Assembly: GCA_052426225.1 (NCBI GenBank)
Contig: JBNJNM010000009.1
Span: 1-64,000 of the forward strand
Direction: 5' to 3'
Origin: Zancudomyces culisetae HAW-14-8
Taxonomy: Eukaryota > Fungi > Kickxellomycota
DNA: 64,000 bases
Shown here: piece by piece, positions 1 through 50,892 of the stretch
Position numbering within the stretch: position 1 is the first letter of the stretch
How the letters are laid out: each line of letters begins with the position of its first letter
Notes under the pieces: generated by a model
Database searches by the model: none
Told to the model about the DNA's origin: nothing
What the model saw: only the letters and a program-made list of their open reading frames with translations
Made by a program: the position numbers and the translations under genes

Positions 1-1
1 T

Positions 2-1806
2 CCTAACCCTAACCCTAACCCTAACCCTAACCCTAACCCTAACCCTAACCCTAACCCTAACCCTAACCCTAACCCTAACCCTAACCCTAACCCTAACCCT
101 AACCCTAACCCTAACCCTAACCCTAACCCTAACCCTAACCCTAACCCTAACCCTAACCCTAACCCTAACCCTAACCCTAACCCTAACCCTAACCCTAACC
201 CTAACCCTAACCCTAACCCTAACCCTAACCCTAACCCTAACCCTAACCCTAACCCTAACCCTAACCCTAACCCTAACCCTAACCCTAACCCTAACCCTAA
301 CCCTAACCCTAACCCTAACCCTAACCCTAACCCTAACCCTAACCCTAACCCTAACCCTAACCCTAACCCTAACCCTAACCCTAACCCTAACCCTAACCCT
401 AACCCTAACCCTAACCCTAACCCTAACCCTAACCCTAACCCTAACCCTAACCCTAACCCTAACCCTAACCCTAACCCTAACCCTAACCCTAACCCTAACC
501 CTAACCCTAACCCTAACCCTAACCCTAACCCTAACCCTAACCCTAACCCTAACCCTAACCCTAACCCTAACCCTAACCCTAACCCTAACCCTAACCCTAA
601 CCCTAACCCTAACCCTAACCCTAACCCTAACCCTAACCCTAACCCTAACCCTAACCCTAACCCTAACCCTAACCCTAACCCTAACCCTAACCCTAACCCT
701 AACCCTAACCCTAACCCTAACCCTAACCCTAACCCTAACCCTAACCCTAACCCTAACCCTAACCCTAACCCTAACCCTAACCCTAACCCTAACCCTAACC
801 CTAACCCTAACCCTAACCCTAACCCTAACCCTAACCCTAACCCTAACCCTAACCCTAACCCTAACCCTAACCCTAACCCTAACCCTAACCCTAACCCTAA
901 CCCTAACCCTAACCCTAACCCTAACCCTAACCCTAACCCTAACCCTAACCCTAACCCTAACCCTAACCCTAACCCTAACCCTAACCCTAACCCTAACCCT
1001 AACCCTAACCCTAACCCTAACCCTAACCCTAACCCTAACCCTAACCCTAACCCTAACCCTAACCCTAACCCTAACCCTAACCCTAACCCTAACCCTAACC
1101 CTAACCCTAACCCTAACCCTAACCCTAACCCTAACCCTAACCCTAACCCTAACCCTAACCCTAACCCTAACCCTAACCCTAACCCTAACCCTAACCCTAA
1201 CCCTAACCCTAACCCTAACCCTAACCCTAACCCTAACCCTAACCCTAACCCTAACCCTAACCCTAACCCTAACCCTAACCCTAACCCTAACCCTAACCCT
1301 AACCCTAACCCTAACCCTAACCCTAACCCTAACCCTAACCCTAACCCTAACCCTAACCCTAACCCTAACCCTAACCCTAACCCTAACCCTAACCCTAACC
1401 CTAACCCTAACCCTAACCCTAACCCTAACCCTAACCCTAACCCTAACCCTAACCCTAACCCTAACCCTAACCCTAACCCTAACCCTAACCCTAACCCTAA
1501 CCCTAACCCTAACCCTAACCCTAACCCTAACCCTAACCCTAACCCTAACCCTAACCCTAACCCTAACCCTAACCCTAACCCTAACCCTAACCCTAACCCT
1601 AACCCTAACCCTAACCCTAACCCTAACCCTAACCCTAACCCTAACCCTAACCCTAACCCTAACCCTAACCCTAACCCTAACCCTAACCCTAACCCTAACC
1701 CTAACCCTAACCCTAACCCTAACCCTAACCCTAACCCTAACCCTAACCCTAACCCTAACCCTAACCCTAACCCTAACCCTAACCCTAACCCTAACCCTAA
1801 CCCTAA
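2..1806 (+). repeat. Telomeric repeat (CCCTAA)n, about 300 units; chromosome end
   Basis: Uninterrupted CCCTAA hexamers from the window start. Confidence 0.99.
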
Positions 1807-1968
1807 CCCTATCCCTAACCCTATCCCTATCCCTATCCCTATCCCTATCCCTATCCCTATCCCTATCCCTATCCCTATCCCTATCCCTATCCCTATCCCT
1901 ATCCCTATCCCTATCCCTATCCCTATCCCTATCCCTATCCCTATCTCTATTGCTAACCCTATCCCAAA
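1807..1968 (+). repeat. Variant telomeric repeat block (CCCTAT)n, degenerating inward
   Basis: 21 consecutive CCCTAT units at 1819-1944, then ctctat/tgctaa/ccctat/cccaaa. Confidence 0.95.
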
Positions 1969-9521: not shown

Positions 9522-10853
9522 AACAATTAAGCTCAAGACATTTTCGGACGTAGTCTTGAGCGTATCTAATTATCCTAAACCGTCCACTTCAATCAAAAAT
9601 CTATACCCTTTAAATATTGCCGTTAATGAAACAACCGGAAGTTTATATCAAGCTTAATTAAATCTACTTTACAATTTAACAATAAAATATACATTACAGA
9701 AATCACCAATCTAACACCTGAATTAAATGTAAAAAATACATTCTACTAATCCAACTATAACTCTGAAAATAAACCTGAAACCAAATCTGAAGTCAAACCT
9801 GAACTTAATACTGTACTTAAACCTGAACTTAAACTTGAAATAAAACCTGAAATCAAATCTGAACTTATAATTAAAACTAAACCCGTACTATACTCAAAAC
9901 CTGAACTTAAGCCTGAACTCAAGCCTGTATCTACACCTGACTGCAACTTAAAAATTAATTCCACAATCAATATGAATCTTGACCTGGAACATTTAAATAT
10001 GTCAACAAATAAAGCTTACTCTCACCTTGTAGTTTCAGTAACCCTTCGGGTAAACAATAACCCGATAAAATCCGTTGCCATGATTGATTCGGGTGCAACT
10101 AATTGCTTCATTGATTCTACTTTTGCCAAGACTAATAACATTCTATTAGTTTTAAAAAAATTAGCATTTCCGCTACTAGTAATTGACGGAAGATTAATTT
10201 CGTCATGCTCCATAACACACAATACAATACCACTATAACTTAACACCTATAATCATCACAAAACTATATCCTTTGATGTAACCAAATTGGGATAATACCT
10301 TGTAATTATTGGAATAAACTGTCTGAGAACCCATAATCCACACATAGAGTGGAATTTAGATAAGTTGTATTTCATATCTGAATATTGCTATAATAATTGT
10401 GGTATTCAACAAAATCAATGTTCTACACACACAATAACCTGCACAATAATTCCAGAAAAATCAGAAATAACTCCTATACCATCGGAATATTCTGAATTTT
10501 AAGATGTATTCGATGAATATGCAACTAATAATTAACCACCTCATCGTACATAGGATCATAATATTTCGTTAACACCAGGCTCACAACCACCATTTGGACC
10601 AATTTAATCACTATCTGAAACAGAACTCGCAGCACTTTGTGAATATTTGAAAGAAAATTTAGATAAAGGTTTTTGTCAGGAAACTAATTTATTTAAGTTG
10701 GGAAACTTAATGTTCCCAAGTTAGGATATAAAGGTAATTAAATATGATTAAAAATAAATATTAAAACTTATGGGTAAATAATGCGATTCTGACATTATCC
10801 CCCCTTCAAAGAATATTTTAAATATATAAAAATAATATCTTGGACAAAAATGT

Positions 10854-11120
10854 GAGCTTATAGTCGAGTGGCTAAGGCGTCGAACTTGTATTCTGCAGGA
10901 CCCTGGTTCGATCCTTCGCTGTAAGACCGTAATTGGGAAGTAATTAGCTGTAGAGTGGATGTGATGTTTCACGGGGCCAATGTGCGCGATGACGTCCTTC
11001 GGGACTAGTACCGGACCGTTTCACCTCTCCGACAACTCCTTCGGGATCTCGAGCAGTTAATTCGAATCACGTGATCGTGTGGCCCAAGACGTTAGCGCCC
11101 TCCTAAGTTCATTCTTTTTT
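10854..11120 (+). ncRNA. Putative Pol III transcript: tRNA-like head plus long structured RNA, antisense to element B
   Basis: A-box TAGTCGAGTGG 10861-10871; B-box GGTTCGATCC 10905-10914; TATA-like 10821-10830; two C(UUCG)G hairpins; GGGCCA/TGGCCC stem; T6 at 11115-11120. Confidence 0.6.
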
Positions 11121-11240: not shown

Positions 11241-14200
11241 TTATGGTTTGTTGTGATATGTCTTATAGTATTTTTTCAATAGTTGTGGCGCGTTTATGTT
11301 TTCAATCGGCTCCCAGCTTCTTTCACTTATGTCAAAGCCTTTCCAATCAACTAAGTAATATTTTTTACCCCGTACAAGCTTAGAATCCAAAATAGCCTTA
11401 ACTTCATATTCTTTATTTCCATTTATAATTAGGGGTGGAGGAGGACTGTCTATTAATCTGCGGTTACTGCTGGGTTCGATATACGGTTCCAATAATGAGA
11501 CATGAAAAGTGTTATGGATTTTCATTGATGGCGGGAGGTCTAAACGGACAGAAACAGGATTGATGATTTTTGAAATAGTGAGTGGGCCTAGAAGTCTATG
11601 GTCAAGCTTTTTAGAAGGCCTTTGAGTTTTGATATTTTGGCTGGATAGCCAAACCTTGTCACCTAGTTTATACTTTGGATGTTCAGATCGGTTTACATCA
11701 GCATACTTTTTATATTCCTGAGATTTCTTGTTAAGTATGGAAGTGAGGGCAGATTGAAGTTCTTTGAGTTGTTTTATCCTATCAGAAGCGCTGGGGACGT
11801 GAACGTTTTTAGTGATTTGAGGATCAAATCTTGGATGGTAACCATATAGAGCAAAGAAAGGAGAAGTATTAGTGCTGGAGTGGAGAGTGTTGTTATAAGC
11901 AAATTCGGCAATTGGGAGCAGTTCAAACCAATTATCTTGCTGATAGTTGATGAAACAGCGTAGATACTGTTCCAATGTTTGATTCACCCGCTCCGTTTGA
12001 CCGTCTGTCTCTGGATGGAAGGCTGTAGACATTCTAGTATCAACTTTGAGCAGTTTGAATAGTGAACTCCAAAATTTGGACGAGAATTGGGTTCCACGGT
12101 CAGAGATTATGACGTCTGGTAGTCCATGAAGCTTGAATACGTGGGTAAAGAAGGCGGAGGCAGTTTCTTCTGAGGATGGCAGCTTCTTAAGCGGGATGAA
12201 ATGGCTCATTTTAGTGAACCTGTCTACAACTACCATAATAGTAGTGTGCTTGTTGGATGGAGGAAGATCAGTTATGAAATCCATGGTAATAGATTTCCAT
12301 GGGCCTGAAGGAGCGGGTAGCGGAAGTAGTTTACCGTAAACTTTGTGTCTTCTGTCCTTTGATCTATTGCATGTATCACAGGTTTGAACAAATTCTTTAA
12401 TAAATTTGCGCATTCCTGGAAACCAAAAGTCTCGTTCCACGAGCTCCAATGTCTTCTTAGCACCAAAATGGCCGGCTGGGCCACTGTCATGTCTAGAACT
12501 TACGACTTGCGGCTTCATTTTGTCGGGGACGACAACACGGTTTCCAAGCATTACAATCCCATCTTCAACTTCTACTGGCTCGTTAGACTTATGGCTGCTC
12601 TGGTATCTTGCGGCATCCAATAATCCTTGTAGATGGGCTTTGCTGGATTTGGCGATTTCTTGAGCAAAATCACTGTCCACTATGCTGATAATGTCTATGA
12701 AGTGGTCTTCACCTATGATGTTGTTGTTGGCGACCTTATCAGGTGTGTGATTGGGCAAACGAGAAAGAGCGTCAGGTTTGCCTCCTTGAGATCCAGGCCT
12801 GTAGGTTATGATGAAGCTGAATCTACTGAGATCAAGAGACCACCTTGCGTGTCTTCTGTTGAGTGACTTCAGATTTTTAAAGGTCTCCAGATTCTTATGG
12901 TCAGTAAGAATCTTGAACGGGATGGAGGAGCCTTCCAGATGATGTCGCCATTCTTTGAGAGCCTTGATGATTGCCAAAAGTTCCTTGTCATAGATATTAT
13001 AGTTGGATTCGGCAGTGTTGAGTTTGTAAGAGTAGTAGGCACAAGGACGGAGATCACCGTTTTCATCTTCTTGGGACAGAGCAGCCCCAATGGCGTAGTC
13101 TGAGGCGTCAGTTTCCAGAATAAACTGTTTTCCTGGGTCAGGGTATCTGAGAACGGGGGAAGTGGTGAGATCCTGGATAAGAGTATTAAAGGCTTCACCT
13201 GCCTCCTTACTCCAAACGAACGGTGTATCCTTTTTCAGAAGTCTTGTGATTGGCAGGGCTTTCAGCGAAAAGTATGGGATAAACTTTCGGTAGTAATTGG
13301 CAAAACCGAGAAACTTCTGGACCTCCTTGACATTGGTGGGTGGTAGCCATTCCTTTACACACTTGACTTTAGCAGGATCGGTGGCTATTCCATCTGAAGA
13401 CACAACATGGCCTAGAAATTCAACTTCCCTGATATGGAAGTGACATTTTTCGGCGTTACAGTACAGACCATTTTCAAGCAGCTTTTTCAGAACAGATTTC
13501 ACATGATTGATGTGAGTGTCAGTGTCATTGGAAAATATTAAGATGTCGTCAAGGTATGCAATTGCATAGAGATCCAATACATCTCGTAACACATCATTGA
13601 TAAAGTGCTGAAAGGTGGCGGGAGCATTTGTCAAGCCAAATGGCATGACCTGGTACTCAAAGTGGCCATATCTGCACCTAAATGCAGTTTTCCACTCGTC
13701 ACCTTCCTTGATCCGCACCAAGTTGTAGGCACCTTTGAGATCCAATTTTGTAAAGACCTTGGCTGTACGCAGCCGATCGAACGCCTCATCAATCCTAGGT
13801 AATGGGTACCTATTCTTGATGGTAGCTTCGTTCAATCGGCGGTAGTCAACACAAAGGCGCAAGTCTCCAGACTTCTTCTTTACAAACATGATTGGTGCAC
13901 CGGCAGGGGAAACAGAGCGTCTGATGAAGCCATTGGTGAGGTTTTCGCGGATGTAACCTCTTAGAGACTCTAACTCTACTTCAGATAGCGGGTATATTGG
14001 CCCCCAGTATGGGGTGTAACCCTCTTTGGTGTTGACAGGACAGTCATAACGGCGGTGAGGAGGAAGTGAAACGGCAGACTTGGGATTGAACACCTCCTTG
14101 AATTCAGAGTATATTACTGGAAGTTGCGGAAATTCTTCCAAGTACTCTAGTGGGGACTCAGAAACGGCAAAAGTTACAGGATCTGGATCCAAGGAATATT

Positions 14201-15068
14201 CTGGCTCGGGGGTGGTGACTGGGGTATTTTTATGAAATGGCCGGGATCTGACGACTGGTTCTCTTGGCTCAATTTTTTTCAGGATTGCTTTGGGAAGTTC
14301 AGGCCTGAGTGGTGCTTTTGGCACAGGGGTTACTGGACGACGGGGCTCAGGAATTTGCTTGACAACATGGTTATCTACTGGATTCTCAATAGCTGCGGGT
14401 TTGGGCAAACTTTGGGTTTCAGGTTCTGGAGTGACTGATTGGACTGGTGCAGGAACAGGAACAGGAAGAATCTCTTCAATTCTGGCGTATGGATTTGACG
14501 GAGCTGGGCTGGGGAGATCAGGAGACGGAGGCGGTGAAAATCTTTGATTTTCAGTGTTTGAATCGTCCAACTTGACCGATTCGAGCAACTTGGCACTGTG
14601 TGGAAGCAGGGTAGTTGATAATCTATTCAACACCCTTTGGAGGATAGTTGAGTTTGTGGACGTATTCTGACTGGTATTTTGTTCTACTGGATCTGGATCT
14701 GGTTCATCAGGTGACTTGAACACGGCCTGGATGGAGTGGGTATCAACACAATTTGTACTGCAAAATTCAGAGTCAAAGTGGATCTGGAGGTCTGGCCAAG
14801 TTATACTAGGATTATGTTTGCGTAACCAGGGTAATCCAAAAATAATGTCAGCGTGATTGGTTGGAATCGGGATAAGGTCTAGGTGTTCAGAGTGGTTAGG
14901 ACCGGACTTGATATGGGCATTATCAACCTTGACATTTATGCCCCCTGGGTATATCTGGTGACCATCAACACTTTCTAGGACGATGGTTTTTTCAGCTTCT
15001 TTGGTTGGGAGGTTAAGTTTTTCTAATAAATCTTGACGAATAAAGTTGGCTGAAGCACCGGAGTCCAC
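11241..15068 (-). CDS. pol: Pol polyprotein of element B (PR, Pro-rich linker, RT, RNase H, integrase, chromodomain)
   Basis: 1275-aa ORF: DSGA, YLDD, TDASD, HHCC, DFITDL/SDRG/GQTE, YEVKAILD...YLVDWKGF. Confidence 0.97.
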   Translation of the reverse strand: MDSGASANFIRQDLLEKLNLPTKEAEKTIVLESVDGHQIYPGGINVKVDNAHIKSGPNHSEHLDLIPIPTNHADIIFGLPWLRKHNPSITWPDLQIHFDSEFCSTNCVDTHSIQAVFKSPDEPDPDPVEQNTSQNTSTNSTILQRVLNRLSTTLLPHSAKLLESVKLDDSNTENQRFSPPPSPDLPSPAPSNPYARIEEILPVPVPAPVQSVTPEPETQSLPKPAAIENPVDNHVVKQIPEPRRPVTPVPKAPLRPELPKAILKKIEPREPVVRSRPFHKNTPVTTPEPEYSLDPDPVTFAVSESPLEYLEEFPQLPVIYSEFKEVFNPKSAVSLPPHRRYDCPVNTKEGYTPYWGPIYPLSEVELESLRGYIRENLTNGFIRRSVSPAGAPIMFVKKKSGDLRLCVDYRRLNEATIKNRYPLPRIDEAFDRLRTAKVFTKLDLKGAYNLVRIKEGDEWKTAFRCRYGHFEYQVMPFGLTNAPATFQHFINDVLRDVLDLYAIAYLDDILIFSNDTDTHINHVKSVLKKLLENGLYCNAEKCHFHIREVEFLGHVVSSDGIATDPAKVKCVKEWLPPTNVKEVQKFLGFANYYRKFIPYFSLKALPITRLLKKDTPFVWSKEAGEAFNTLIQDLTTSPVLRYPDPGKQFILETDASDYAIGAALSQEDENGDLRPCAYYSYKLNTAESNYNIYDKELLAIIKALKEWRHHLEGSSIPFKILTDHKNLETFKNLKSLNRRHARWSLDLSRFSFIITYRPGSQGGKPDALSRLPNHTPDKVANNNIIGEDHFIDIISIVDSDFAQEIAKSSKAHLQGLLDAARYQSSHKSNEPVEVEDGIVMLGNRVVVPDKMKPQVVSSRHDSGPAGHFGAKKTLELVERDFWFPGMRKFIKEFVQTCDTCNRSKDRRHKVYGKLLPLPAPSGPWKSITMDFITDLPPSNKHTTIMVVVDRFTKMSHFIPLKKLPSSEETASAFFTHVFKLHGLPDVIISDRGTQFSSKFWSSLFKLLKVDTRMSTAFHPETDGQTERVNQTLEQYLRCFINYQQDNWFELLPIAEFAYNNTLHSSTNTSPFFALYGYHPRFDPQITKNVHVPSASDRIKQLKELQSALTSILNKKSQEYKKYADVNRSEHPKYKLGDKVWLSSQNIKTQRPSKKLDHRLLGPLTISKIINPVSVRLDLPPSMKIHNTFHVSLLEPYIEPSSNRRLIDSPPPPLIINGNKEYEVKAILDSKLVRGKKYYLVDWKGFDISERSWEPIENINAPQLLKKYYKTYHNKP

Positions 15069-15169: not shown

Positions 15170-16138
15170 CTACATCTGAGCACTGTCTTTTGGCACCCCA
15201 GGTATAGGGGGTCTTGGCCTGCGGAGCGGACAGTTACGGAGAATGTGGTTCGGCTGACCACAGTATAGACAAAGATTATTGGCTAATCTTCTCTGACGTT
15301 CGGCTGTATCTAGCGGTGCTCTTGGACGGGAGGTGACGGCATCAACGTCCATTGGTTCAGGAGCCTGGTGATCTGGGACAGGCATGGCTGGACGGGGGAA
15401 GACCGGTGGAGCCGGAGTACTCCAGTTGCGGAATGGGACGCTTCTCTTGGGCAGGTAGGCACTGCGGGCATTGATTCTGTTCTCAAGCTCAATCACCTGA
15501 TCAATGAGCTGATCCAAGGTGTTTGGTAGCGGTTCAGTGGCAAGGCGCTGGACAAGGCTAGTATCCAATCCGATGTAAAACAGGTGAATTTTGGCTGGCT
15601 CGTTGAATCCACTGAGAGAGGCGAGGTTTCTGAACTCGGTTGCAAATTCCAGGACGGAACGCTGGGACTGGCGGCAACTATGAAGCTGGGTGATAGCTCG
15701 GGCTTGGTGGCCAGGATCTGAGAATCTCTTTTGAAATTCATTCTCAAACCCTTTGAAATCTGAGAGCAACGGTGATTGGGTATCGATAAGGTTATCGAAC
15801 CACAGGGCAGCATGACCGGCAAGGTGAGAACTGATGAACCATATCTTGTTATGGTCACTCTGGAACACGTCTGGTCTGGCCCAGAACTGGCGCTTGATCT
15901 CGGCGGTGAAGGCTCGGAACCTTCCTGATTCTCCTGAGTATTTCTGGATTTCTGGTATTCTGATACCATCAATCCTTGGCTGCGGATTTGGTGCAGGCAA
16001 ATTCTGCAACTGACTGGGGACTTGGGCGGGTGTCTGGGCTTGAGCCTGGGCTTGAGCTTGACTTTCTTGCAAAGCTTGTTGCATAGCTAATTTTGCGATC
16101 TCATCTAATTGGTGGACCATCATTAACTCTTCAACCAA
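15170..16138 (-). CDS. gag: Gag of element B
   Basis: Retrotransposon capsid-like region, EPMDVD, CLYCGQPNHILRNC; true start probably the ATG a few codons in. Confidence 0.95.
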   Translation of the reverse strand: MVEELMMVHQLDEIAKLAMQQALQESQAQAQAQAQTPAQVPSQLQNLPAPNPQPRIDGIRIPEIQKYSGESGRFRAFTAEIKRQFWARPDVFQSDHNKIWFISSHLAGHAALWFDNLIDTQSPLLSDFKGFENEFQKRFSDPGHQARAITQLHSCRQSQRSVLEFATEFRNLASLSGFNEPAKIHLFYIGLDTSLVQRLATEPLPNTLDQLIDQVIELENRINARSAYLPKRSVPFRNWSTPAPPVFPRPAMPVPDHQAPEPMDVDAVTSRPRAPLDTAERQRRLANNLCLYCGQPNHILRNCPLRRPRPPIPGVPKDSAQM

Positions 16139-19046
16139 TAATTAGAAGTTTCCCAAAATGTCAGGAAACTAATTTATTTAAGTTGGGAAACTTAATGTTC
16201 CCAAGTTAGGATTCAAAGGTAATTAAATATGATTAAAAATAAATATTAAAACTTATGGGTAAATAATGCGATTCTGACAGTTTTATTCATTCTTCATCAT
16301 CTCCAGCTGGCTCTCCTATACTTTTTGTATAAAGAAAGTTGGATATTTAAGATTATGCGTTGATATTAGAGGATTAAATAACTTGACAATTAAATCAGGT
16401 ATCTTTACCTTTAATCGGAGAGTTACTCGACAGATTCAGTCAAGCGAAAATATTTTCTATAATCGATTTAAGAGGCGCTAATAATTTAATATGAATAGCT
16501 AAGGGAGAAAAATGGAAAAGTGCATTTTGTACGAGTTACGGTCACTATATATATTGAGTATGCCATTCGGACTCTGCAATGCTCCAGCATCGTTTCAATG
16601 TTTCATGAATGATGTATTATCTGACTGCTTAGATAGTTTTGCAGTAGTATATTTATATGATATACTGGTATATAGTACAATTAGAATACCATATTAAGCA
16701 TGTAAAAGAGATATTAAGAAGACTCCGAAATAATTCACTATATGCTAAACTGGAAAAATGATGAATTCACAAAACAGATGTCGAATTTTTGGGATATATT
16801 GTTTCCGATAAAGGGGTAAGTATGGATATAACAAAGACAATAGCTGTAAGTGCATGGCCTGCACCAACCTCAATAATAGTAATTCAAACGTTCCTTGGTT
16901 TTGCAAATTTAAATAGAAAATTTATATTGAATTATTCAAAGATTGTGACACCTATAACAAAATTGTTACGAAATAATGAATAATGGAACTGGACACTGAA
17001 GCACAAAACACTTGCGATCAATTAAAAAAACATTTACAACTGCACCTATTTTAAAATATTTTGATCCGATTAAATCAATTACTATCGAAACTGATGCATC
17101 AGACTTCGCAATTGGAGGAGTTATATCACAACGCAACGATAATATCAATTTACATCATATAGATATTATTCCAGAAAGTTACAACCTGCTGAAATCAACT
17201 ATGAAATTTACGATAAAGAAATGTTAGCCATAATTGAGGCTTTTAAAGAATGGAGATCATAACTCGAAGGAGCATTACATCAAATTACGGTTTTAACTGA
17301 TCATAAAAAACTAGAATATTTTACTACCACTAAAACTTTGAATAGGCGTCAAGCACGATGGGCAGAATTATTTGGAAATTATAATTTCATTATTAAATAC
17401 GCAACTGGTTCATCTAACGGGAACCCCGATGCTTTGTCCCGACGCCTGGATCATTTTCCTCAGGAGCGGGATGACGCTCTACGTAATAAGTAAAGTTTGC
17501 TATAGCCAGAACAATTGATTATTGCAGCAGTAGAACTAATGGTTGCTAATAAATTTGATAAAACTATATTAATTAGTAGCTACAAAAAAGATATAAAAGT
17601 TAATTCCATTATTTCTAAATTGCAACATATTAACAATTTATCTAACTCTGAATATCCAAACTTAAAGGATTATAAATACGACAATGAAATACTTACTTTT
17701 AAAGGTAAAACATACATTCCAGATAACATTGAAATCAAACTACTACAACTCAACCAGTTTCACGATTCGCCTATTGCTGGACACTTCGGACATTCTAAAA
17801 CCTTTGAACTGATTTCCAGATACTATTATTGGCCAAAAATGAGTAAAATGATTAAAAATTATATTAACTCATGCGATCAATGTTGCAGATGTAAACAGAT
17901 AAGACACAAACAATATGGTCAACTACAACCTTTACAGATTCCAGAAAAACCGTGGGAATCAATTTCTATGGATTTTATTGTTGGGTTACCATTGTCACAA
18001 ACTTACGATTCAGTATTGGTTATTGTAGATAGACAAACAAAAATGGCGCATTTTATTCCAACAAATAACAATATCAACGCACAACAAACAGCAAAACTTT
18101 TTATCAATAACATATTTAAACTTCACGGACTGCCAAAAGATATAGTCTCTGATAGAGGTTCTATCTTCACTTATAAATTTTGGAATACTATTACCAAAGT
18201 ATTAAATATAAAATTAAATATGTCAACAGCATACCATCCACAAACATATGGTCAAACGGAACGAGTAAACCAAGTTTTAGAACAGTATATCAGGATTTAT
18301 CGTAACTACAACCAAACAAACTGGCATGGTTTATTAGCACTCGCAGAATTTGTAAATAATAACTCATAACACTCAACTACAAAATTTGCACCATTCTACG
18401 CTATACTGGATATCATCCTACAATATTTCGATCAAATATTTTGACTTCACCCAGTAACTCGCCCATAATCACAGATTTAACTCAGAAAATGTCACAAATT
18501 TCAAGGAACTTATAAAAATTATTAAAAATGCAAATGAAAGATACCTAAAGCTTATGATAAAAACAGACAATCAGAACCCGAGTTTAATATAGGATCAAAA
18601 GTGTGGTTAAATAGAAAATAATAAAAACTAACAGACCAAATAACATACTAGATTATACTAAATTAGGTCCATTCACAATAGTTATATAATTAAGCAAAGT
18701 AGCATACGAACTTCAACTTCCTACGACTATGAAAGTACATCCTGTCTTTCACGATTCCCTTCTAGAAATAGTAACTAACAACACTATTGAAGACCGAATT
18801 CATGAAACTCCATTACCGGTACTAGTTGATGGAATATCAGAATACAAAGTCAAACAAATATTAGACAGTCGTATTAAATATAATAAACTACAATATCTAG
18901 TGGACTGGAAAGGGTACGACGCAAGCGAAAAAACTTGGTAACCAGCCGAACATCTAACAAATACAAAAGAACTTGTGGAAAAGTACCATAATAAAAACCC
19001 GAATAAACCAATGTCGCTCAGAGATCGACACTAAGAGAGGGAATAC

Positions 19047-19377: not shown

Positions 19378-20395
19378 CTGATAAACAAAAAAAGTAAAAT
19401 ACTTTATACAAAATTCACTTTAGATATAAAATCATTGCTTCTAATACTTCACTTGCTGATACAATTACAAAATTTGAAGCTGACCTCCTCAATATCTTTT
19501 ATATTTATCCAAATTTTTAAGATTAATTTCAACGCAAGAAATCTAAAAAATCAGAAAATTGCTGAAGCTAAGAAGGCTATAAAGAAACAAGAACTAGCAC
19601 AAAACTCGATGACCGTAGATACACAAGCTAGTTTCAAAGGACATAAAAAGTATATTATGGCAACAAATTGCGTCGAAACCATCAACCAATATAACCAAAA
19701 TATCACTAATATACTACAGTAGAAAAATCACCAAAGGGTAGCTAATAAACTACAAATCCAACAAAAGACATTCAATTAACAATAAATAAAGAGTATTTAA
19801 CAACACAAATCTATACAAAAGTTCTCATGGCGCCAAAGAAGGAATCACAACATAATATTCAAAAAGAAAGTAAAACACAGTTTTTACTTCAAATATCATT
19901 ACCATCAACAATTACTAAGTAACTTTACCAAAAATACAACAAAGTCAACTAAAAATTATTCAGCTATATTTACTTTTGTTCACAACATGACTTCCAAATC
20001 TGATAGTAAACAGCTTATATTAAACAATTGAATTAAACACATACCTCAATTACTTAACAATGAAGTTGTTATGGTTTTAAATTATATGAAACCTTTGTCT
20101 CCACAGGACAATGTTTCATATAATTTATCAATTATAACCATAACATTTACCGACCTCCACATTATTAATTTAAATGTTTTAGTTATGTTTTAGTTATGTT
20201 TTAAATTAGTATAATTTTAAAATTATCGTCCCATCATGAAAAGTATATAAGCTATACGATTATCATGATGGAACGATAAGTTTTACAACGAGTTTAGTTT
20301 CGTTTAGTTTATTCACTTATAGTCTAGTTTACTAATAAATATATTTTATCCAAGTCCAGACCTTGACAGTTTGTAAAACTTCTCTTCAAGATACC

Positions 20396-21196
20396 ATGTC
20401 AAGTATATTCACCGAGTCAAGCATTAAACTTCCAGACGCTCCACGTTTTAGTGGGAAACCTTCAGAATTCCAAGCCTTCATGTCAAGCATTGAGCTTTAT
20501 TTTTGGGCACGTGGAGATCTATTCAAGACTGAAAAAAACAAAATAGTATTTATTGGCGCACACTTAACAGGACCCACAGCCATATGGTTTAACTCGCTCA
20601 TCGAGGAAAAATCAACAGACCTCGCAAACTATGCTCAGTTTTTGGAATTATTTAAGAAGAATTTTTCAGACCCCAGCCAAGAAATAAGAGCTAGAGGAGA
20701 ATTACGTAGATGTAAACAAGGGCCAAGAAGCGTGGCTAACTATGCTGCCGAATTCAGGACTTCAGCCAGAATCAGCGGATTTGACCAAGCTGCACTAATT
20801 GACCAGTTCTTAAGAGGACTAAATGACAATGTCATGAACTTTCTTATGATGAATGATATGCCTATAAAACTGGAGGACACTATAGCTCTAGCTGTAAAAG
20901 TTGATAACCGCCTTTCCAATCGACGAATGTTAAGAAGCGCTCCGGGTTATTATAATTCATCATTTCAGAGACCAACAACTAAAGCAGAACCTGTTCAAAG
21001 TACTATGCATGATGACCTTCCACCTGGTGAACCTATGGAAATAGACGCACTAGTTACCAAACAGCGACCACATCTCTCTCAAGAAGAAAAGGACAGACGC
21101 AGAGCTCTTGGGTTATGCATGTATTGTGGAAATCAAGGACATATAGCTATTCGCTGTCCAAACAAAACTCAGTCGGGAAAAGTCCACACTCAGTAA
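20396..21196 (+). CDS. gag: Gag of element C
   Basis: First ATG MSSIFTE; PRFSGKP, EPMEID, CMYCGNQGHIAIRC. Confidence 0.93.
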   Translation: MSSIFTESSIKLPDAPRFSGKPSEFQAFMSSIELYFWARGDLFKTEKNKIVFIGAHLTGPTAIWFNSLIEEKSTDLANYAQFLELFKKNFSDPSQEIRARGELRRCKQGPRSVANYAAEFRTSARISGFDQAALIDQFLRGLNDNVMNFLMMNDMPIKLEDTIALAVKVDNRLSNRRMLRSAPGYYNSSFQRPTTKAEPVQSTMHDDLPPGEPMEIDALVTKQRPHLSQEEKDRRRALGLCMYCGNQGHIAIRCPNKTQSGKVHTQ

Positions 21197-24100
21197 TACC
21201 TGGGAAGTTATTACTGGGTTCTCGTTACCTATTTAGCGTTAATAATCTTACAGACAGTTTAAGGAAATTCACTTTTCCAATAAAGTTATCTTATAACAAC
21301 ATTACGGTCCCAATAATGGCACTAATTGACTCCGGTGCCACAGGAAACTTTATTCAGGAGAAGTTAGCTAAAAGATTAAACCTTCCCAGAAAACCAATAT
21401 CACAACACATCGAGTTAGAAACCATCGACGGTAATAAAATAACTGGATCACCCATAACTGAAACTTGTATTGGGTTTACACTAACATTATCTAATAACCA
21501 CTGTGAAGAAATATCATTACTACCTATAAACTCAATTGATATAGCCATAGTCTTGGGATTACCTTGGTTACGTAAACATAATCCACAAATACACTGGATT
21601 AATCATTCATTATCTTTCAACTCCAATTACTGTGTACACAACTGTATTAGCAATCCAAAGAGAATAGATGCTGTATTCAGAGCCCCAATTCATGAACATT
21701 CTGATATCGAGGCAGATAGACCTAGTAGCCCAGATATTTCTTCAGATGAAGAATTCTATGATGCCCCGTCTGAGCCCATAAATAAAACCCAAACCGAAAG
21801 CAATCACCCAGTACCATTTTCCATCAATACGGATAACGTCAACACATCCAACTCCGCAGATCCTATACATATTCCACCACAATATCATGATTTACAATCG
21901 GTATTTGATCCAGTCGAAGCAGACAGATTACCACCAAACAGAAGTTATGATTGCCCAATAGAATTAACGTCAAACATATTACCGAAAATGGGACCCATAT
22001 ACCCATTGTCGGTTGTCGAGTCACAAGCACTGTACGATTACATCCAAGAAAATTTAAAAAAGGGTTTTATAGTTAAATCAAAGTCACAAATAGGAGCACC
22101 AATAATGTTTGTAGATAAAAAGGACGGTGGCCTACGCCCTTGTGTTGATTATCGAAAGATAAACGAAATAACAGCAAAAAATATATACCCTTTACCGAGA
22201 ATAGATGAATCGTTCGATCATCTAAGTAAGGCAAAATACTTCACCAAATTAGACTTAAGAGGAGCATATAACCTAGTACGAATCAGACCTGGTGATGAAT
22301 GGAAGACTGCTTTCAGATGCAGATACGGTTTATATGAATACAGGGTGATGCCATTCGGGCTCACTAATGCCCCAGCCACATTCCAGACGTTTATGAATGA
22401 TATACTCAGAGAAGCACTGGATATATATGCTATTGCATACCTTGACGACATACTTATATTTTCATCTAGTCTAGAGGAACACTACAGCCATGTAAGAACA
22501 ATACTAAAAATACTCAAGGAAAACAAACTGTATGCAAAACTAGAAAAATGTAAATTCCACCAAACATCGATCGATTTCTTAGGCCACGTAATAAGCCAAA
22601 AAGGTATAACATCTGATCCCCAAAAAGTAGCCAAGTTGATCGACTGGGAAATACCAAAAACAATTAAAGATATACAAGTATTCTTAGGTTTTGTAAACTA
22701 TTACAGAAAATTTATCCCAAATATGGCAAACATCGCGTTACCCTTAACAAATTTACTAAAAAAGGATATAGCATTTAAATGGAACAACGAAGAACAGAAT
22801 TCGTTTACTACACTCATTAGACATCTAGCTGGATTACCTTTACTCTCTTATCCTAACCATGACAAACAATATATCGTGGAGACTGACGCTTCGGATTACG
22901 CTATGGGAGCAATATTATCGCAGTATGATGAAGATAATGAATTAAGACCTGTTGCATACTACTCTAGAAAGTTCACCCCAGCGGAAATCAATTACGACAT
23001 CTACGATAAGGAAATGCTTGCCATTGTTACAGCAATGAAAGAATGGAGACATTACCTCGAAGGTACACAGCAAACTACAATTGTATATACGGATCACAAA
23101 AATCTAGAACACTTTAAGAATGCTCAAACCTTAAACCGACGGCACGCAAGATGGTCACTTACGCTATCACGATATAACTTCCTTATTACATACAGACCGG
23201 GAACTGAGGGTGGCAAACCTGACGCACTGTCTAGAAGATCTGAATACCAACAAGGTCCTCCACTACCTAAAAACATCTTTCGCAATACCAACTTCCTTTA
23301 CGCAATTATCCAGCCACATAACCCTATATTATCTAAAATCCTAAACGAGTCTAAGAAAGACAAATATGCAATTAAGTTACTGAAAAAAATAAATTTACCG
23401 ACCAAATCAAATAATGATAAACAACCGATATATCGAATTGACAATGGAATAATAAAGTACAAAGAAAGAATATATTTACCAGAAAGCACTAGGCTGGATG
23501 TTATCAAGATGCACCATGATTCAACAACTGCTGGACACTATGGAATTAAGAAAACTTTAGACCTGTTACGTCGCACATTTTGGTTCCCTGATATGAATAA
23601 CTATGTAAGGAAATATATAGAAACATGCGATATCTGTAAAAGAACAAAAATACCTCGACACAGAAAGTTTGGATTACTAACACCTTTACCAGTTCCATCA
23701 GGTCCGTGGAAATCAGTTACAATGGATTTTATTGTAGAGTTACCACCATCCAACGGGTATACAACTATACTAGTAATGGTAGACCGGTTTACAAAGATGG
23801 CTAAATTCGTGCCTATCAAGAAACTTCCCACTGCGCAACAAACTGCTGACATCTTCCTGAAACATATTTTCTCTAACTATGGATTACCAGAAGAAATAAT
23901 CACTGACCGAGGTAGCCAATTTACTTCAAAGTTTTGGCAAAGATTACTAAAACTACTGAAAATAAAATCTAAACTCTCTTCAGCATTCCATCCAGAAACT
24001 GACGGTCAGTCAGAAAGAACAAACCAAACTCTCGAACAATACCTTAGAGCTTTTATCTCTTATCAACAAGATAATTGGGACACGCTATTACCTATGGCAG

Positions 24101-24762
24101 AGTTTTCGTATAATAATTCTAAACACTCATCTACAAAGTCATCGCCGTTTTACAGTCTCATGGGATATCACCCGAACTTCACTACAATCAAATTATCAAC
24201 TACACAAGTACCCGAAGCAGATGAACACATAAATAACTTAAGAAAAATAAATACATTATTAAAAACTAATTTATATAATTCTAACAAAAAATCTAAGTTA
24301 TACGCGGATAGGAAAAGAACAAGTGGACCTGAAATCAAGCCAAACGATCTAGTGTGGTTAAATGCAAAGAATATAAAAACTGACAGACCATCAAAGAAGT
24401 TAGACCACCAATTTCTTGGACCATTCAAAGTATTAAAAAGGATAGGAAAAGTAGCTTATAAACTAGAATTACCAGAGTCGATGAAGATTCATCCTACATT
24501 TCATATTTCGCTATTGGAACCATACAAACCTAATGAAATTCCAGGACGAGTCAAGGAACCACCTCCAGCAATCACAGTCGAAGGACAAAATGAATACGAA
24601 GTAGCAAAAATACTCGATTCAAGAAAACGATACAACAAAATCGAGTACTTGGTTGATTGGAAAGGACATAGCGCAGCTGAACGATCTTGGGAACCTAGTG
24701 AGAATTTAAACTGTGACCGCCTACTTAATTTATACCACAAGAATCATCCTTACAAACCATAA
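21115..24762 (+). CDS. pol: Pol polyprotein of element C (in -1 frame relative to gag)
   Basis: 1215-aa ORF: LIDSGA, YLDD, ETDASD, integrase DDE, chromodomain YEVAKILD...VDWKG. Confidence 0.97.
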   Translation: MHVLWKSRTYSYSLSKQNSVGKSPHSVIPGKLLLGSRYLFSVNNLTDSLRKFTFPIKLSYNNITVPIMALIDSGATGNFIQEKLAKRLNLPRKPISQHIELETIDGNKITGSPITETCIGFTLTLSNNHCEEISLLPINSIDIAIVLGLPWLRKHNPQIHWINHSLSFNSNYCVHNCISNPKRIDAVFRAPIHEHSDIEADRPSSPDISSDEEFYDAPSEPINKTQTESNHPVPFSINTDNVNTSNSADPIHIPPQYHDLQSVFDPVEADRLPPNRSYDCPIELTSNILPKMGPIYPLSVVESQALYDYIQENLKKGFIVKSKSQIGAPIMFVDKKDGGLRPCVDYRKINEITAKNIYPLPRIDESFDHLSKAKYFTKLDLRGAYNLVRIRPGDEWKTAFRCRYGLYEYRVMPFGLTNAPATFQTFMNDILREALDIYAIAYLDDILIFSSSLEEHYSHVRTILKILKENKLYAKLEKCKFHQTSIDFLGHVISQKGITSDPQKVAKLIDWEIPKTIKDIQVFLGFVNYYRKFIPNMANIALPLTNLLKKDIAFKWNNEEQNSFTTLIRHLAGLPLLSYPNHDKQYIVETDASDYAMGAILSQYDEDNELRPVAYYSRKFTPAEINYDIYDKEMLAIVTAMKEWRHYLEGTQQTTIVYTDHKNLEHFKNAQTLNRRHARWSLTLSRYNFLITYRPGTEGGKPDALSRRSEYQQGPPLPKNIFRNTNFLYAIIQPHNPILSKILNESKKDKYAIKLLKKINLPTKSNNDKQPIYRIDNGIIKYKERIYLPESTRLDVIKMHHDSTTAGHYGIKKTLDLLRRTFWFPDMNNYVRKYIETCDICKRTKIPRHRKFGLLTPLPVPSGPWKSVTMDFIVELPPSNGYTTILVMVDRFTKMAKFVPIKKLPTAQQTADIFLKHIFSNYGLPEEIITDRGSQFTSKFWQRLLKLLKIKSKLSSAFHPETDGQSERTNQTLEQYLRAFISYQQDNWDTLLPMAEFSYNNSKHSSTKSSPFYSLMGYHPNFTTIKLSTTQVPEADEHINNLRKINTLLKTNLYNSNKKSKLYADRKRTSGPEIKPNDLVWLNAKNIKTDRPSKKLDHQFLGPFKVLKRIGKVAYKLELPESMKIHPTFHISLLEPYKPNEIPGRVKEPPPAITVEGQNEYEVAKILDSRKRYNKIEYLVDWKGHSAAERSWEPSENLNCDRLLNLYHKNHPYKP
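21175..21217 (+). promoter_or_regulatory. Candidate -1 ribosomal frameshift signal of element C
   Basis: G_GGA_AAA heptamer at 21175-21181, then a CAGTAATA/TATTACTG stem 9 nt downstream; frames fit a -1 shift. Confidence 0.65.
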
Positions 24763-24942
24763 AAAAAAAAAAAAAAAAAAAAATAAGATGGACCCCCGAG
24801 GAATCGAACCTCGGCCATCATTATGATTGGCAAAATTGAATCAATATCCTGCATCATTACCACCTAAAGGATTCAGCAATGACTCGAACTCGCATTCACC
24901 AGACCACAATCATGAGACATACCGACTATGCCATTGAGGCCC
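24761..24942 (-). ncRNA. Putative Pol III transcript with two tRNA-like modules, antisense to element C
   Basis: On minus: A-box TGGCATAGTCGG (24933-24922), B-boxes GAGTTCGAGTC (24891-24881) and GGTTCGATTCC (24810-24800), perfect T-arm CGAGG-TTCGATT-CCTCG, acceptor-like 3' GGGGTCCA, then a T23 run. Confidence 0.6.
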
Positions 24943-26217
24943 GAGGCCTATACAGTTATAAATACTCAAGTCTAAAGGGGGGGGTAGTGTTATGGTTTTA
25001 AATTATATGAAACCTTTGTCTCCACAGGACAATGTTTCATATAATTTATCAATTATAACCATAACATTTACCGACCTCCACATTATTAATTTAAATGTTT
25101 TAGTTATGTTTTAGTTATGTTTTAAATTAGTATAATTTTAAAATTATCGTCCCATCATGAAAAGTATATAAGCTATACGATTATCATGATGGAACGATAA
25201 GTTTTACAACGAGTTTAGTTTCGTTTAGTTTATTCACTTATAGTCTAGTTTACTAATAAATATATTTTATCCAAGTCCAGACCTTGACAGAAGTACATAA
25301 CATTGACCTTTCTTTTTATAATACCACTCTTCTTTTATCCAAAAGTTATATTATTTTAACAACGTTGATGACAAATAAATATGAAATATTTTTGAAATGC
25401 TAGAGTAAAAATTATTATATTCTATCACTCCTAAACTCACAGAGAAAACTAAATTATTATACCTAAAGTTATCAATTATATCAACCATGACGGAATTATT
25501 AACATAATAAATTTAATAATCACATAGGCCCTATAATCATGTATACACAAGATTATCACAAACTAGGATTCAAAATATTAAACAACATTAACAATATTGT
25601 ACAATTCGTAATAACTCAGATGACATCAATGATCAAGTATTTAATCATACATATAATAATCTAATTAACTACTTCACTACAAATTATTATTCAAAATCAA
25701 ATAAGCCTACTTCATAAAGACAATAATATCCAATTACCGAATTTCTACATAAAATTAATAATCCTTAAAACGCCAATTGAGTTTCGACCAATTACATCAG
25801 CAACCAATTGGCTAACAACAAAGCTATCTAAAACAATATCAATATATTAATTGAACAAGAAAACCCAGTAATCTAAGAAATTACCTAGAATAGATCAAAC
25901 AACTTGAAAACAAAGTTATTCCCAATAACTACATCATAGGATCACTCGATTTGTAACTTTAATTCAATTGTTCGAATCAAAACTTTGACAGTACTATTCT
26001 TAAATTGACCAAATCTCAATAACTAACTGATGCCACAATTTACATTTGTGAATCAACTATTTTATGTATCATAAAAATGTATTTAAATATATTATTGTTA
26101 TCACAATGGGCACCAATGCAGAATAAATGAACTATACTATACCTTCAAATATTGATAATATTTTAAAATATTTTGCCTTCATTAATACAGATATATTAAC
26201 GATAAATTCTAGAAAAC

Positions 26218-26908: not shown

Positions 26909-29758
26909 GTAACTCACAAAGACAATTTATCCAAACTTATACACACCGCCAACAACAGCATCCCTGGAATAAATATGACTCTCGCTATTAATTCAGCAGA
27001 TACTGTAGACTTCCTTGATAAAACTGTTTACTTAAATACTGAAATTCAAATCAGTTTCAAAACGTATCAAAAACCTCTTAATCTATACGGATAAATACCA
27101 TTTTTTTCTAAACACAGCATTTCTACTAAAAAAGCAGTTATATCTGGTGTATTAAACTGATATTATGACAATGCACAGTTTATAATGACTTTGTTGATAT
27201 TCGATAATTATTAAAAGAACGACTACTAGCACGATGATATAACATAAAATTCATAAATGACATATTCATTAAAAACGCATACGATGTTAGAAAAATATTG
27301 CTAAAAACGACCAATAAACCTTCTAAAAACATTGTTTCATTAGTAATATTCTATAACAAACATTCAAACTACCAAATATTACAAAGATATATACATGAAC
27401 TCAACGAATATAAAACTGCTCTAATAACAATTTAATATTTATTATTGTTAATAAAAATCACCGAATCTTGGTGATTACCTACTAAAATTTGGGCTAAAAT
27501 AAGCCCAAGCCGAATAATCAAGGATAATTATAGGGCTGATTGAAATTCAGCCCCAATCCTATCCCTATAGATGCTCCAACACAAAAAGTCGGTCTTCAAA
27601 GTAATTTTTCCAATGAATCGGAAGAACTTTAAATCAACCTCACAAATTCTGTATAATAATTTTGGAAATTCAAATTACCAACCTAATCACAAATATACTT
27701 AGCACTATGTTTGACTATCTCAATTTTAATCTATATTTGTAATAATATTTTCAGATACCAACTAAGAAAAATTATGCTATTTATACCAAATACCTTAATT
27801 AGTGAAAATAATCATTATCTTTACTAGAATTAATATTTATTAATATACTTTTCATAAATCAAAGTTCGATATCAAACTGCTGACTAAGTAACTTTAATAT
27901 TTTTAATTATTTTAATAATAGTTTAATAGATATAGCTTTCTACACCTATTATTAGATAAATAATATATTAACTTCTTAAAGCAGCTTCGAATAGATAAAT
28001 ATGTAACTACCAACGAAGAACAATACATGGTTATTCATATTTCTAAAACATAAAGAATATAACCATAATAATCAGATTCAACCCACAACATTAATATATA
28101 GTTATAAAGTAGCAAAAAGCAAGAACATAATATAAAATATGACATATTTAAATATCAAATTCAATTAAATTTACAAGTGACTGTTATGATAATACTATTA
28201 CAATCTACAATCATAATTTGAGTTTATTAAAAAATATTATACACAACTAATATATTAATTCTACTTTAGTTAACTTATTCAATATAAATATATATTTCAA
28301 ACTATAAATTCAATTATATGAATATATAACACAAATGAAGTGGAACTATAAATTGTATTAGAAATAAAATTCGCAGTCCTTATTAATAAACCATAGATTC
28401 ATAATTATTACTTTGCAACAACATAGGACTTTTAAGTCAATATATAACTTTGTATATATAATGTGAGTTTCACAAATGTCTCAAAATAATGATAATAATT
28501 TACAAAGTGTAATATCTCGCTCATTAATATCCAGATATTATATGTTTTTTATATTATATAATGCACAAAAGTTACATAATAATTATATATAAACTGTATA
28601 ATTATTGATTAAAAATTCATTATGAAATTAAAATTGAAAATTTTATTAAAATGAGACTATTTTGGGAATTTTTCAATTAAAAACTTTAAAATTCTGTCCA
28701 CCTTCCTTTAGACTTGATAACTGCCTCAACTCTTTTGGGAATACTATCTATAAGACCAAGTATTGTTTCCACTGAAATTAAATTCCATTCCGTTTCTATT
28801 CGCTCCCATAATTCGATCATCCCGAACGGAGGTTTGCTGTACCAATTTAGGCGTCTTACTGTTATAAACAATGAGCTGCTTATAACTATGCTGTGATTAA
28901 TATTCAGTATTATTATTTATTAGGAAGAAGTAGTTATTTAGAAAAATATATTATTAGATGAGTTAATGATATCTTTTTCTCTGATGTATCCCAACGGAAT
29001 TTCGAAGGGTTTATATATTTTTTCATCAGAGAAATTTGCTATGAAAAAACTTAGTGATAATAATTTTTTAGTTTTAAAATTTTACTATGTAAAAATGAAC
29101 TAATTTAAAGTAACTATCAAAATTGAGTTTATCAAACTTCTTGTTTGATTTATTCATGAAATTACTTTATCGATTTTAACATGTATTTTGTTTATCGATT
29201 TTAACATGTATTTTGTTTATCGAATTTTATCATGGTTTTTGGTTATCCAATTTTATCATGGTTTTTGGTTATCTATTTTGCCTACGATATTGTATATCGA
29301 TTTTGCCTATGATTTTGTATATCGATTTTGCCTACGATATTGTATATCGATTTTGCCTATGATTTTGTATATCGATTTTGCCTACGATATTGTTATCGAT
29401 TTTGCCTATGATTTTGTATATCGATTTTAACATGAATTTTATAAATTTAATTATTGAAAATTTTCTTTAATTTTCTTTGTCAATTTTCCCAATAATAAAT
29501 ACTGTGATTTCATGGTGAATTTTGCATACATGATTCCAATGTCGGAATGGCTTATTTGAATGTCGTAAGTGAAATAATAAAATAGTTTAATTTTTTATAG
29601 AACAAAAATGTAAACTAAAATTTATGTTCCGGGAATTTGCCATTCCTAACATTTTAGGATCGATTCCAACAAAGATCCATTTTTTGGAATATATTGCCAT
29701 TCCTAACATCACCCCCATCTTTATGATCAAGCTCCGCGAGATCGATAGCTTATCATGT

Positions 29759-45037: not shown

Positions 45038-45047
45038 TTTGACTCAT
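44166..45047 (-). CDS. gag: DIRS gag-like ORF1
   Basis: First ORF after the left ITR, 293 aa; position typical for DIRS. Confidence 0.85.
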   Translation of the reverse strand: MSQNANVTVEVLQQILERLSALEKQTAPNDHMSVSEISDSANITAPSIVDAVDDDSVENFVVPRPTPSDLVMYPKLQKALPTVEQDFFWTPLADVERKKFYAAIPRNSGMDYEPPEENIKLSGDNKRTDAMLYDIQYRLSAVTRPLDYFMHEAIRDGGAVSAEKLAVFINSIRVLLADVASNITQQRIKLSYKASGVPSDPPEMVSTSRKPLVDIQQMLEVKAAANTLQRATKNVQQRRPRFNATRTFPSIPFQPSVNQNVQAEPQQIQQQRQHKSAATGGNFRFANSSKHRK

Positions 45048-50850: not shown

Positions 50851-50892
50851 AAGATTATTTTAAAGTATTAGATTAAAATTAATAAAATCTAA

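What the first reader, a model, noticed from the sequence alone, without database searches (positions are those of the whole stretch)
10821..11120. Element B cassette: tRNA-like head followed by a ~180-nt branched hairpin with two UUCG tetraloops
After the tRNA-like head (10854-10928; boxes intact, cloverleaf imperfect) comes a GC-rich island. It contains GTCC-TTCG-GGAC (10994-11005), TCC-TTCG-GGA (11037-11046), GGGCCA/TGGCCC (10974-10979/11080-11085), GCGCGAT/ATCGTGT and outer GATGTTT/AGACGTT pairings, ending at T6. The many G-U pairs and the C(UUCG)G loops work on the + strand, which suggests the functional RNA is antisense to the retroelement. The architecture resembles VA/EBER/TMER-like RNAs or an unknown ribozyme (inference).
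Basis: partly seen in the sequence, partly recalled or inferred. Interest (0 to 1): 0.8.

Follow-up and report, generated by a model that had tools for sequence, protein, structure and literature searches.

The report
Antisense tRNA-headed RNA gene inside retrotransposon
A young, intact jumping gene of an insect-gut fungus carries on its opposite strand a 260-base unit with tRNA-type promoter and stop signals, which likely makes a folded RNA of no known family; a sister element has a different tRNA-shaped unit at the same spot, so the lineage probably keeps these units.

Summary
The host is the gut fungus Zancudomyces culisetae, by named protein relatives. The cassette lies antisense between the pol stop and the polypurine tract of an intact, self-priming chromodomain Ty3/gypsy element (B). 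Sister element C (52% pol identity, same clade) carries an unrelated tRNA-shaped cassette at the same place and strand; elements A and D have none. No Rfam family, hammerhead or HDV-like core, 5S origin, SINE hallmark or solo-LTR hallmark was found. Best reading: an element-borne RNA polymerase III gene for one end-closed, VA/EBER-like RNA, likely aimed at host RNA silencing. Expression and function are untested. New variant of small-RNA-gene-carrying LTR elements.

The parts
10674..10794 (-). 3' LTR of element B (121 bp, 2 differences from the 5' LTR); target-site duplication GTTTT at 10669-10673 and 16280-16284
10795..10809 (-). Polypurine tract of element B
   Evidence: sequence
10824..10833 (+). 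TATA-like AT stretch about 20-30 nt upstream of the head (weak evidence in an AT-rich genome)
   Evidence: sequence
10852..10860 (+). 5' strand of the 9-bp terminal stem; 10854-10860 is tRNA position 1-7 in register with the A box
10854..10926 (+). Decayed tRNA-derived head: A box from 10861, B box 10905-10914; own acceptor pairs only in a 3-nt shifted register; anticodon-stem 5' strand can pair 8 bp with the B box
   Evidence: tRNA 10.9 bits, E 7.4; not called by ARAGORN
10927..11103 (+). Trailer of no known family, 52% GC, with two C(UUCG)G hairpins (10994-11005, 11037-11046) and parameter-dependent inner helices
11104..11112 (+). 3' strand of the terminal stem; A11111 sits at the discriminator-like position
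11115..11120 (+). T6, the first run of 4 or more T after the head (predicted Pol III terminator), followed by a T-rich tract to about 11190
11241..15068 (-). Intact pol of element B: protease, RT, RNase H, integrase, SH3, chromodomain
15170..16138 (-). gag of element B
16146..16156 (-). Primer-binding site, complementary over 11 nt to the element's own LTR (16183-16193): self-priming type
16159..16279 (-). 5' LTR of element B
24789..24942 (-). Parallel cassette of sister element C (20067-25289, identical LTRs): tRNA-shaped shell with a 74-nt insert in the anticodon loop, two B-box-like motifs, T23 run at 24761-24783 abutting the pol stop
   Evidence: (z -2.30)

Best explanation
The cassette is likely an RNA polymerase III gene owned by the retrotransposon: it sits antisense in the 3' untranslated region of an intact chromovirus and is predicted to make one RNA of about 260 nt, closed by a 9-bp end-to-end stem, which likely acts as a VA-like decoy or substrate for the host's RNA-silencing machinery. 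Shown: the position, orientation, A and B boxes, T6, terminal complementarity, UUCG hairpins, the intact self-priming carrier, and a parallel cassette in sister element C. Inferred: (1) a tRNA gene was captured once in the B/C lineage; (2) promoter boxes were kept while the cloverleaf decayed, so TFIIIC/TFIIIB still start Pol III near 10852; (3) the T6 stops Pol III about 120 nt short of the pol stop, so no antisense-pol RNA is made; (4) the old 5' acceptor strand pairs with the far 3' end, so the RNA stays whole instead of being cut behind the head; (5) an abundant, stable, partly double-stranded RNA occupies Dicer or Argonaute and eases silencing of the element. I put steps 1-4 at about 0.7 and step 5 at about 0.5 given them.
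For: A+B box pairs at 2 places in 64 kb, both at the pol-stop/PPT junction and antisense, in elements B and C; shuffles give 0.06. B, C and P0020 group at 0.98 and SH-aLRT 99.4, while cassette-less A and D fall elsewhere; B and C pol are only 52% identical, so the arrangement is old though both copies are young (LTRs 2 and 0 differences). Terminal stem: probability 0.77-0.91 in all 8 parameter/temperature settings, and a helix this long arises in 0.6% of 5,000 shuffles; it holds two G-U pairs that work only on the + strand. UUCG hairpins. No run of 4 T before the T6. C folds better than shuffles (z -2.30, 4 of 200) and is the only ARAGORN call in the window once introns are allowed. The element family is under purifying selection: 20 of 24 listed pol differences in run X1 are at third positions. 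The host has a Dicer-like protein on record (PMC12663654 supplement rows). The PBS is self-priming, so the cassette is not needed as a primer.
Against: Folding energy of B is no better than shuffles. The inner fold depends on parameters. Conservation of the cassette relative to pol third positions is not significant (2 of 175 against 6.1 expected, p 0.057, clustered differences). B's trailer and C's insert are not alike (p 0.54), so two separate captures remain possible. With the shorter integrase region the B/C/P0020 support was only 0.6. The antisense orientation needs no function: a sense tRNA-like fold would invite cutting of the genomic RNA (inference). The host Dicer lacks PAZ and dsRBD calls. 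Nothing here tests a decoy role.
Confidence: 0.4

Rival explanations
1. Passenger: a host Pol III gene or T-tailed SINE was captured in the 3' UTR and is carried along without benefit; its RNA features come from its earlier life.
For: MFE not above shuffles. B and C cassettes share only tRNA-level likeness. One contig of run X2 joins the last 35 nt (11072-11106) to other upstream sequence, as a 5'-truncated copy would. Only 64 kb could be searched for other copies (no genome held).
Against: Same place and strand in two elements that are 48% diverged in pol. No flanking duplication at the unit's ends; the best repeats were 6-8 nt of AT-rich sequence not adjacent to both ends. No other copy in the window. 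No Rfam host RNA; 5S origin rejected.
Confidence: 0.25
2. DNA-level device: the A/B boxes bind TFIIIC and act as a tDNA-like chromatin barrier, or damp the neighbouring 3' LTR promoter; the RNA is a by-product.
For: Boxes are kept while the cloverleaf decays. The head lies about 45-60 nt from the 3' LTR in both elements. The elements carry chromodomains and lie within 25 kb of a telomeric array. tRNA-gene barriers in yeasts are recalled knowledge, not tested.
Against: Does not explain the UUCG loops, the G-U-containing terminal stem, the absence of T4 for 260 nt, or C's significant fold.
Confidence: 0.15
3. Self-limiting antisense RNA: the transcript is fully complementary to the 3' UTR of the genomic RNA, forms double-stranded RNA, is diced, and restrains copy number. 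A TMER-like version has RNase Z cutting behind the head to free the trailer as a small-RNA precursor.
For: Perfect complementarity follows from the orientation. The fold with a separate head and trailer is only 1-3 kcal/mol worse than the end-closed version of the same rod. A Dicer-like protein is on record.
Against: The head's own acceptor has probability 0.00 in the Turner 2004 ensemble and its T arm has only 3 possible pairs. The trailer is a branched, weak fold, not a long duplex. No complementarity of 10 nt or more to other parts of B, and none beyond chance to the self-primer (p 0.43).
Confidence: 0.2

Closest known systems
TRIMp3 elements: Helenus (tRNA-like), Cassandra and Ajax (5S-like) (Kojima 2024, PMC10886601; read parts 1-4 of 6)
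   Same: LTR retroelement carrying a small-RNA-gene-derived Pol III promoter with boxes kept and tRNA function lost.
   Different: Those are short non-autonomous elements with the sequence inside both LTRs, where it is thought to drive the element's own transcript. Here the carrier is autonomous, the unit is internal, single, antisense, has its own terminator and a 180-nt trailer.
Adenovirus VA RNAs, EBV EBERs, MHV68 TMERs, Pol III miRNA cassettes of bovine leukaemia virus and foamy viruses (recalled, no call)
   Same: Parasite-encoded Pol III RNA with internal A/B boxes and T-run; terminal stem as in VA/EBER; near the 3' LTR as in BLV.
   Different: No sequence match (Rfam); fungal retrotransposon host; no long stable duplex; no shown product or target.
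Dicistronic tRNA-5S and tRNA-RUF70 genes of Yarrowia lipolytica (PMC2566860; abstract and outline only)
   Same: A tRNA supplies the promoter for a downstream RNA, in one case of unknown function.
   Different: There the leader tRNAs are processed host genes; here the head is decayed, inside a transposon, and the trailer is not 5S.
tRNA-derived SINEs (SINE2)
   Same: tRNA head with A/B boxes plus an unrelated body, 100-700 bp.
   Different: No target-site duplication, no A tail, no second copy in the window; fixed position in an LTR element lineage.
Chromodomain Ty3/gypsy elements (chromoviruses; Tcn1-like group of PMC2864245, passages only)
   Same: The carrier: gag, PR-RT-RH-IN-chromodomain, 5-bp TSD, PPT, 11-nt self-priming site.
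   Different: The passages seen mention no Pol III unit in the 3' UTR; 0 of 60 related metagenome loci had an antisense A+B pair by my strict pattern. Clade assignment to Tcn1 was not tested.

Membership tests
tRNA gene | Cloverleaf scored by ARAGORN or Rfam | tested here: not met
   No ARAGORN call for B on the + strand above 90% threshold; Rfam tRNA 10.9 bits against gathering 29
tRNA-type (type 2) Pol III unit | A box and B box at tRNA spacing | tested here: met
tRNA-type (type 2) Pol III unit | T-run terminator with no earlier T4 | tested here: met
tRNA-type (type 2) Pol III unit | Actual Pol III transcript | not testable with these tools
   no RNA holder listed; only contigs laid
TRIMp3 / Helenus | Non-autonomous, short, tRNA-like sequence inside both LTRs | tested here: not met
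   Autonomous element, cassette outside the 121-bp LTRs
Helenus solo LTR nested in B | TG...CA ends with a 4-5 bp target-site duplication | tested here: not met
   TG and CA ends exist at 10853 and 11111 but flanks differ
SINE2 | Target-site duplication and retroposed tail | tested here: not met
   tail is T-rich on the head's strand
SINE2 | Dispersed copies in the genome | tested here: inconclusive
   none in 64 kb; no genome held; one unexplained junction in X2
Self-cleaving ribozymes | Catalytic core of a known class | tested here: not met
   Rfam none; no hammerhead core, 0 HDV-like descriptor hits on either strand (my own descriptors)
5S rRNA derivative | Sequence or structure homology to eukaryotic 5S | tested here: not met
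   + strand alignment p 0.05-0.55 over 16 tests with 4 of 8 genes; model's best hit E 1, wrong strand; no Harpellales 5S was available
SRP, RNase P/MRP, snRNA, snoRNA, telomerase RNA | Rfam match or core motif | tested here: not met
VA/EBER-like RNA | Internal boxes plus 5'-3' terminal stem | tested here: met
   prediction only
VA/EBER-like RNA | Abundant RNA that binds or blocks a host defence protein | not testable with these tools
   none
TMER | Folded tRNA-like head cut by RNase Z, followed by pre-miRNA hairpins | tested here: inconclusive
   head acceptor only in shifted register, probability 0.00, but that fold is within 1-3 kcal/mol of the end-closed rod
Chromovirus (carrier) | LTRs, TSD, gag, PR-RT-RH-IN order, C-terminal chromodomain | tested here: met

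The most novel reading that the evidence does not exclude
A lineage of autonomous fungal LTR retrotransposons encodes its own Pol III non-coding RNAs, built as tRNA-like shells into which different structured cargoes are loaded (180 nt with UUCG loops in B, 74 nt in C). These RNAs suppress host RNAi as adenovirus VA RNA does: a transposon counter-defence made of RNA, and a new RNA family.
Probability: 0.2. Interest if true: 0.85.

Novelty: new variant of a known kind. Interest (0 to 1): 0.57.

Why it matters
LTR retrotransposons are not known to encode trans-acting Pol III RNAs; the described small-RNA-derived sequences (Cassandra, Helenus, Ajax) serve as promoters in LTRs of non-autonomous elements. 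If these antisense units are expressed and selected, they are the transposon counterpart of viral VA/EBER/TMER RNAs and give a direct test of whether retrotransposons fight or recruit RNA silencing with RNA. They would also add a structured RNA with no family, from a culturable early-diverging fungus. If they are passengers, the finding shrinks to a note for tRNA and repeat annotation.

Tried and rejected
5S origin of the trailer (a resemblance I recalled): tested with 8 Rfam-verified fungal-type 5S genes; alignments, nhmmer and a covariance model gave nothing. Giant-intron pre-tRNA fold for B: 16-20 kcal/mol worse than the best fold in 3 parameter sets and not called by ARAGORN. Primer or decoy-PBS role: element self-primes; cassette-primer duplex p 0.43. 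Ribozyme, snoRNA, Sm-site, U6 and telomerase-template motifs: none. Solo LTR or SINE with duplication: none. Homologue hunts: viral contigs gave 2 chance matches and 0, 1 and 0 protein relatives; 79 metagenome loci gave no match to the trailer; phages gave one hit at E 0.9. Expression: no RNA holder listed; run X4 holds only the cassette (10907-11084) out of 14.8 kb, but it was chosen by that stretch and is probably DNA, so nothing follows. Technical: the other energy sets did not load, nor for the pair probabilities, nor for most z-scores; I use for probabilities and for energies. Script z-scores used T for U, which loses about 2.5 kcal/mol of tetraloop bonus under Turner 1999 and does not change the verdict. 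Two helices were mis-set by 1-2 nt and corrected. Literature: 10 searches found no paper describing this cassette or an internal antisense Pol III unit in an autonomous gypsy element; subscription journals and Repbase were not searched.

Full report
Setting. No genome is held for this window. The window starts with a telomere-like array and is packed with retroelements. A small secreted-type protein at 52968-53390 belongs to a 90% cluster whose 3 named members of 4 are Zancudomyces culisetae, a Harpellales gut fungus of aquatic insect larvae. Element B is an intact chromodomain Ty3/gypsy element on the - strand: 121-bp LTRs with 2 differences, TSD GTTTT, gag, and a 1275-aa pol with protease, RT, RNase H, integrase and chromodomain. 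It sits inside a decayed copy of element A. Its primer-binding site is complementary over 11 nt to its own LTR, the self-priming design known from Tf1 (recalled), so it needs no tRNA primer. The cassette lies on the + strand between the PPT (10795-10809) and the pol stop (11241).

Observation. Two features beat chance: the pair of C(UUCG)G hairpins (0 and 1 of 20,000 shuffles; the only 2 on the window's + strand), and the A+B box pair (2 in the window, 0.06 in 50 shuffles). Folding energy does not: z is -0.24 for the cassette and -0.43 for the trailer, and no sub-stretch or parameter set reaches significance. The inner fold is therefore undetermined.

First, the two ends pair: 10852-10860 with 11104-11112, 9 bp with two G-U pairs, probability 0.77-0.91 in all 8 settings, and matched by 0.6% of 5,000 shuffles. 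The inner 7 bp are tRNA positions 1-7 in register with the A box (Rfam uses the same 5' register), the partner strand is followed by an A and then the T6, and no T4 occurs earlier. The head's own 3' acceptor strand pairs only in a shifted register (probability 0.00), though forcing it costs just 1-3 kcal/mol against the end-closed rod. Second, element C (identical LTRs) has a cassette at the same place and strand. With introns allowed it is ARAGORN's only call in the window (24789-24942, 74-nt insert), it folds better than shuffles (z -2.30), and it ends in 23 T at the pol stop. B and C resemble each other only through the tRNA head (whole p 0.013, trailer p 0.54). In trees of RNase H to chromodomain, B, C and one unnamed protein (P0020) group at 0.98 (118 sequences) and SH-aLRT 99.4 (a subset I chose of the nearer sequences); on the integrase end alone support is 0.6 (190 sequences). 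Elements A and D, whose PPT follows the pol stop closely, fall in other clades. The DNA around P0020 could not be fetched.

Relatives. Of 80 chromovirus-like loci, 71 reach the pol end and 60 hold at least 300 nt beyond it. None matches the trailer, none of 60 scanned has an ARAGORN tRNA, and 0 of 60 has an antisense A+B pair by a strict pattern. Four loci (L004, L051-L053, another clade) have an antisense B box with tRNA-like context inside the LTR. Run X1 holds element B at about 98.6% identity; 20 of 24 listed pol differences are at third positions, so the family is under selection. The cassette shows 2 differences in 175 nt against 6.1 expected at the third-position rate (p 0.057, differences clustered): a hint only. 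The variants do not choose between folds.

What it is not. No Rfam family matches at gathering score or at E 10. Hammerhead, HDV-like, snoRNA, Sm, U6 and telomerase-template motifs are absent. A 5S origin failed three tests. It is not a Helenus-type TRIM (autonomous carrier, cassette outside the LTRs; PMC10886601, parts 1-4 read), not a solo LTR and not a SINE with a duplication, although dispersed copies outside the window cannot be excluded and one X2 contig joins the last 35 nt to foreign sequence.

Mechanism. The best-supported picture is a captured tRNA gene turned into a promoter-bearing shell. Boxes are kept, the cloverleaf has decayed, the old 5' acceptor strand now closes the whole RNA, and a T-run stops transcription before pol. 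The product would be one RNA of about 260 nt in the style of VA/EBER (recalled comparison). The host has a Dicer-like protein on record (PMC12663654, passages and supplement rows; 1 of its 13 files was not searched), so a decoy or substrate role toward RNA silencing is my committed guess (0.4 overall). Rivals are a passenger (0.25), a self-limiting antisense or TMER-like RNA (0.2) and a TFIIIC barrier (0.15). Transcription, processing and function are all inferred.

Novelty. Ten literature searches found only the TRIMp3 paper as a near case; its supplements were not read. Other papers were seen as listings, abstracts or passages (PMC12611240 and PMC2864245 passages, PMC2566860 abstract). Earlier unchecked notes of this scan report antisense tRNA-like units in gypsy tails of other genomes, so the theme may recur; they are leads, not support. 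What is particular here is the long UUCG-bearing trailer of no family, the end-to-end stem, and two different cargoes in sister elements. Verdict: real feature, new variant of a known kind, interest 0.57.

Noticed in passing
window 24789-24942 (-): Element C's cassette: a near-canonical cloverleaf with a 74-nt insert in the anticodon loop that holds a second B-box-like motif; it could be a pre-tRNA-intron mimic and deserves its own study.
   Followed up: partly
L004 and L051-L053, first 100 nt after the pol stop: Chromoviruses of another clade carry an antisense decayed tRNA-like sequence inside the LTR (perfect T-arm in L051-L053), in autonomous elements.
   Followed up: partly
window 11072-11106, run X2: A contig joins the last 35 nt of the cassette to 125 nt of other sequence; the piece of it searched is not in the window. 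Truncated copy or nested insertion, unexplained.
   Followed up: partly
window 10933-10947: The trailer's start resembles the element's own primer-binding site and following bases in the same sense; duplex with the self-primer is no better than chance.
   Followed up: yes
window 1-1950: Telomere-like array of alternating TAACCC and TATCCC units that turns into pure TATCCC proximally.
   Followed up: no
window 40866-50861: Two diverged DIRS-like elements in inverted arrangement, with RT, RNase H and Dam-methylase domains, overlapping ORFs and terminal inverted repeats.
   Followed up: no
window 39419-62389: Cluster of small cysteine-containing, secreted-type proteins without a convincing Pfam match (39419, 52968, 55848, 57503, 61994); one has relatives only in Z. 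culisetae.
   Followed up: partly
window 20078-20127, 24999-25048, 28940-28980: Long palindromes inside the LTRs of elements C and D.
   Followed up: no
L083-L090: Eukaryotic (fungal-type) 5S rRNA genes lie on short contigs of 8 prokaryotic genome records, probably contamination.
   Followed up: partly
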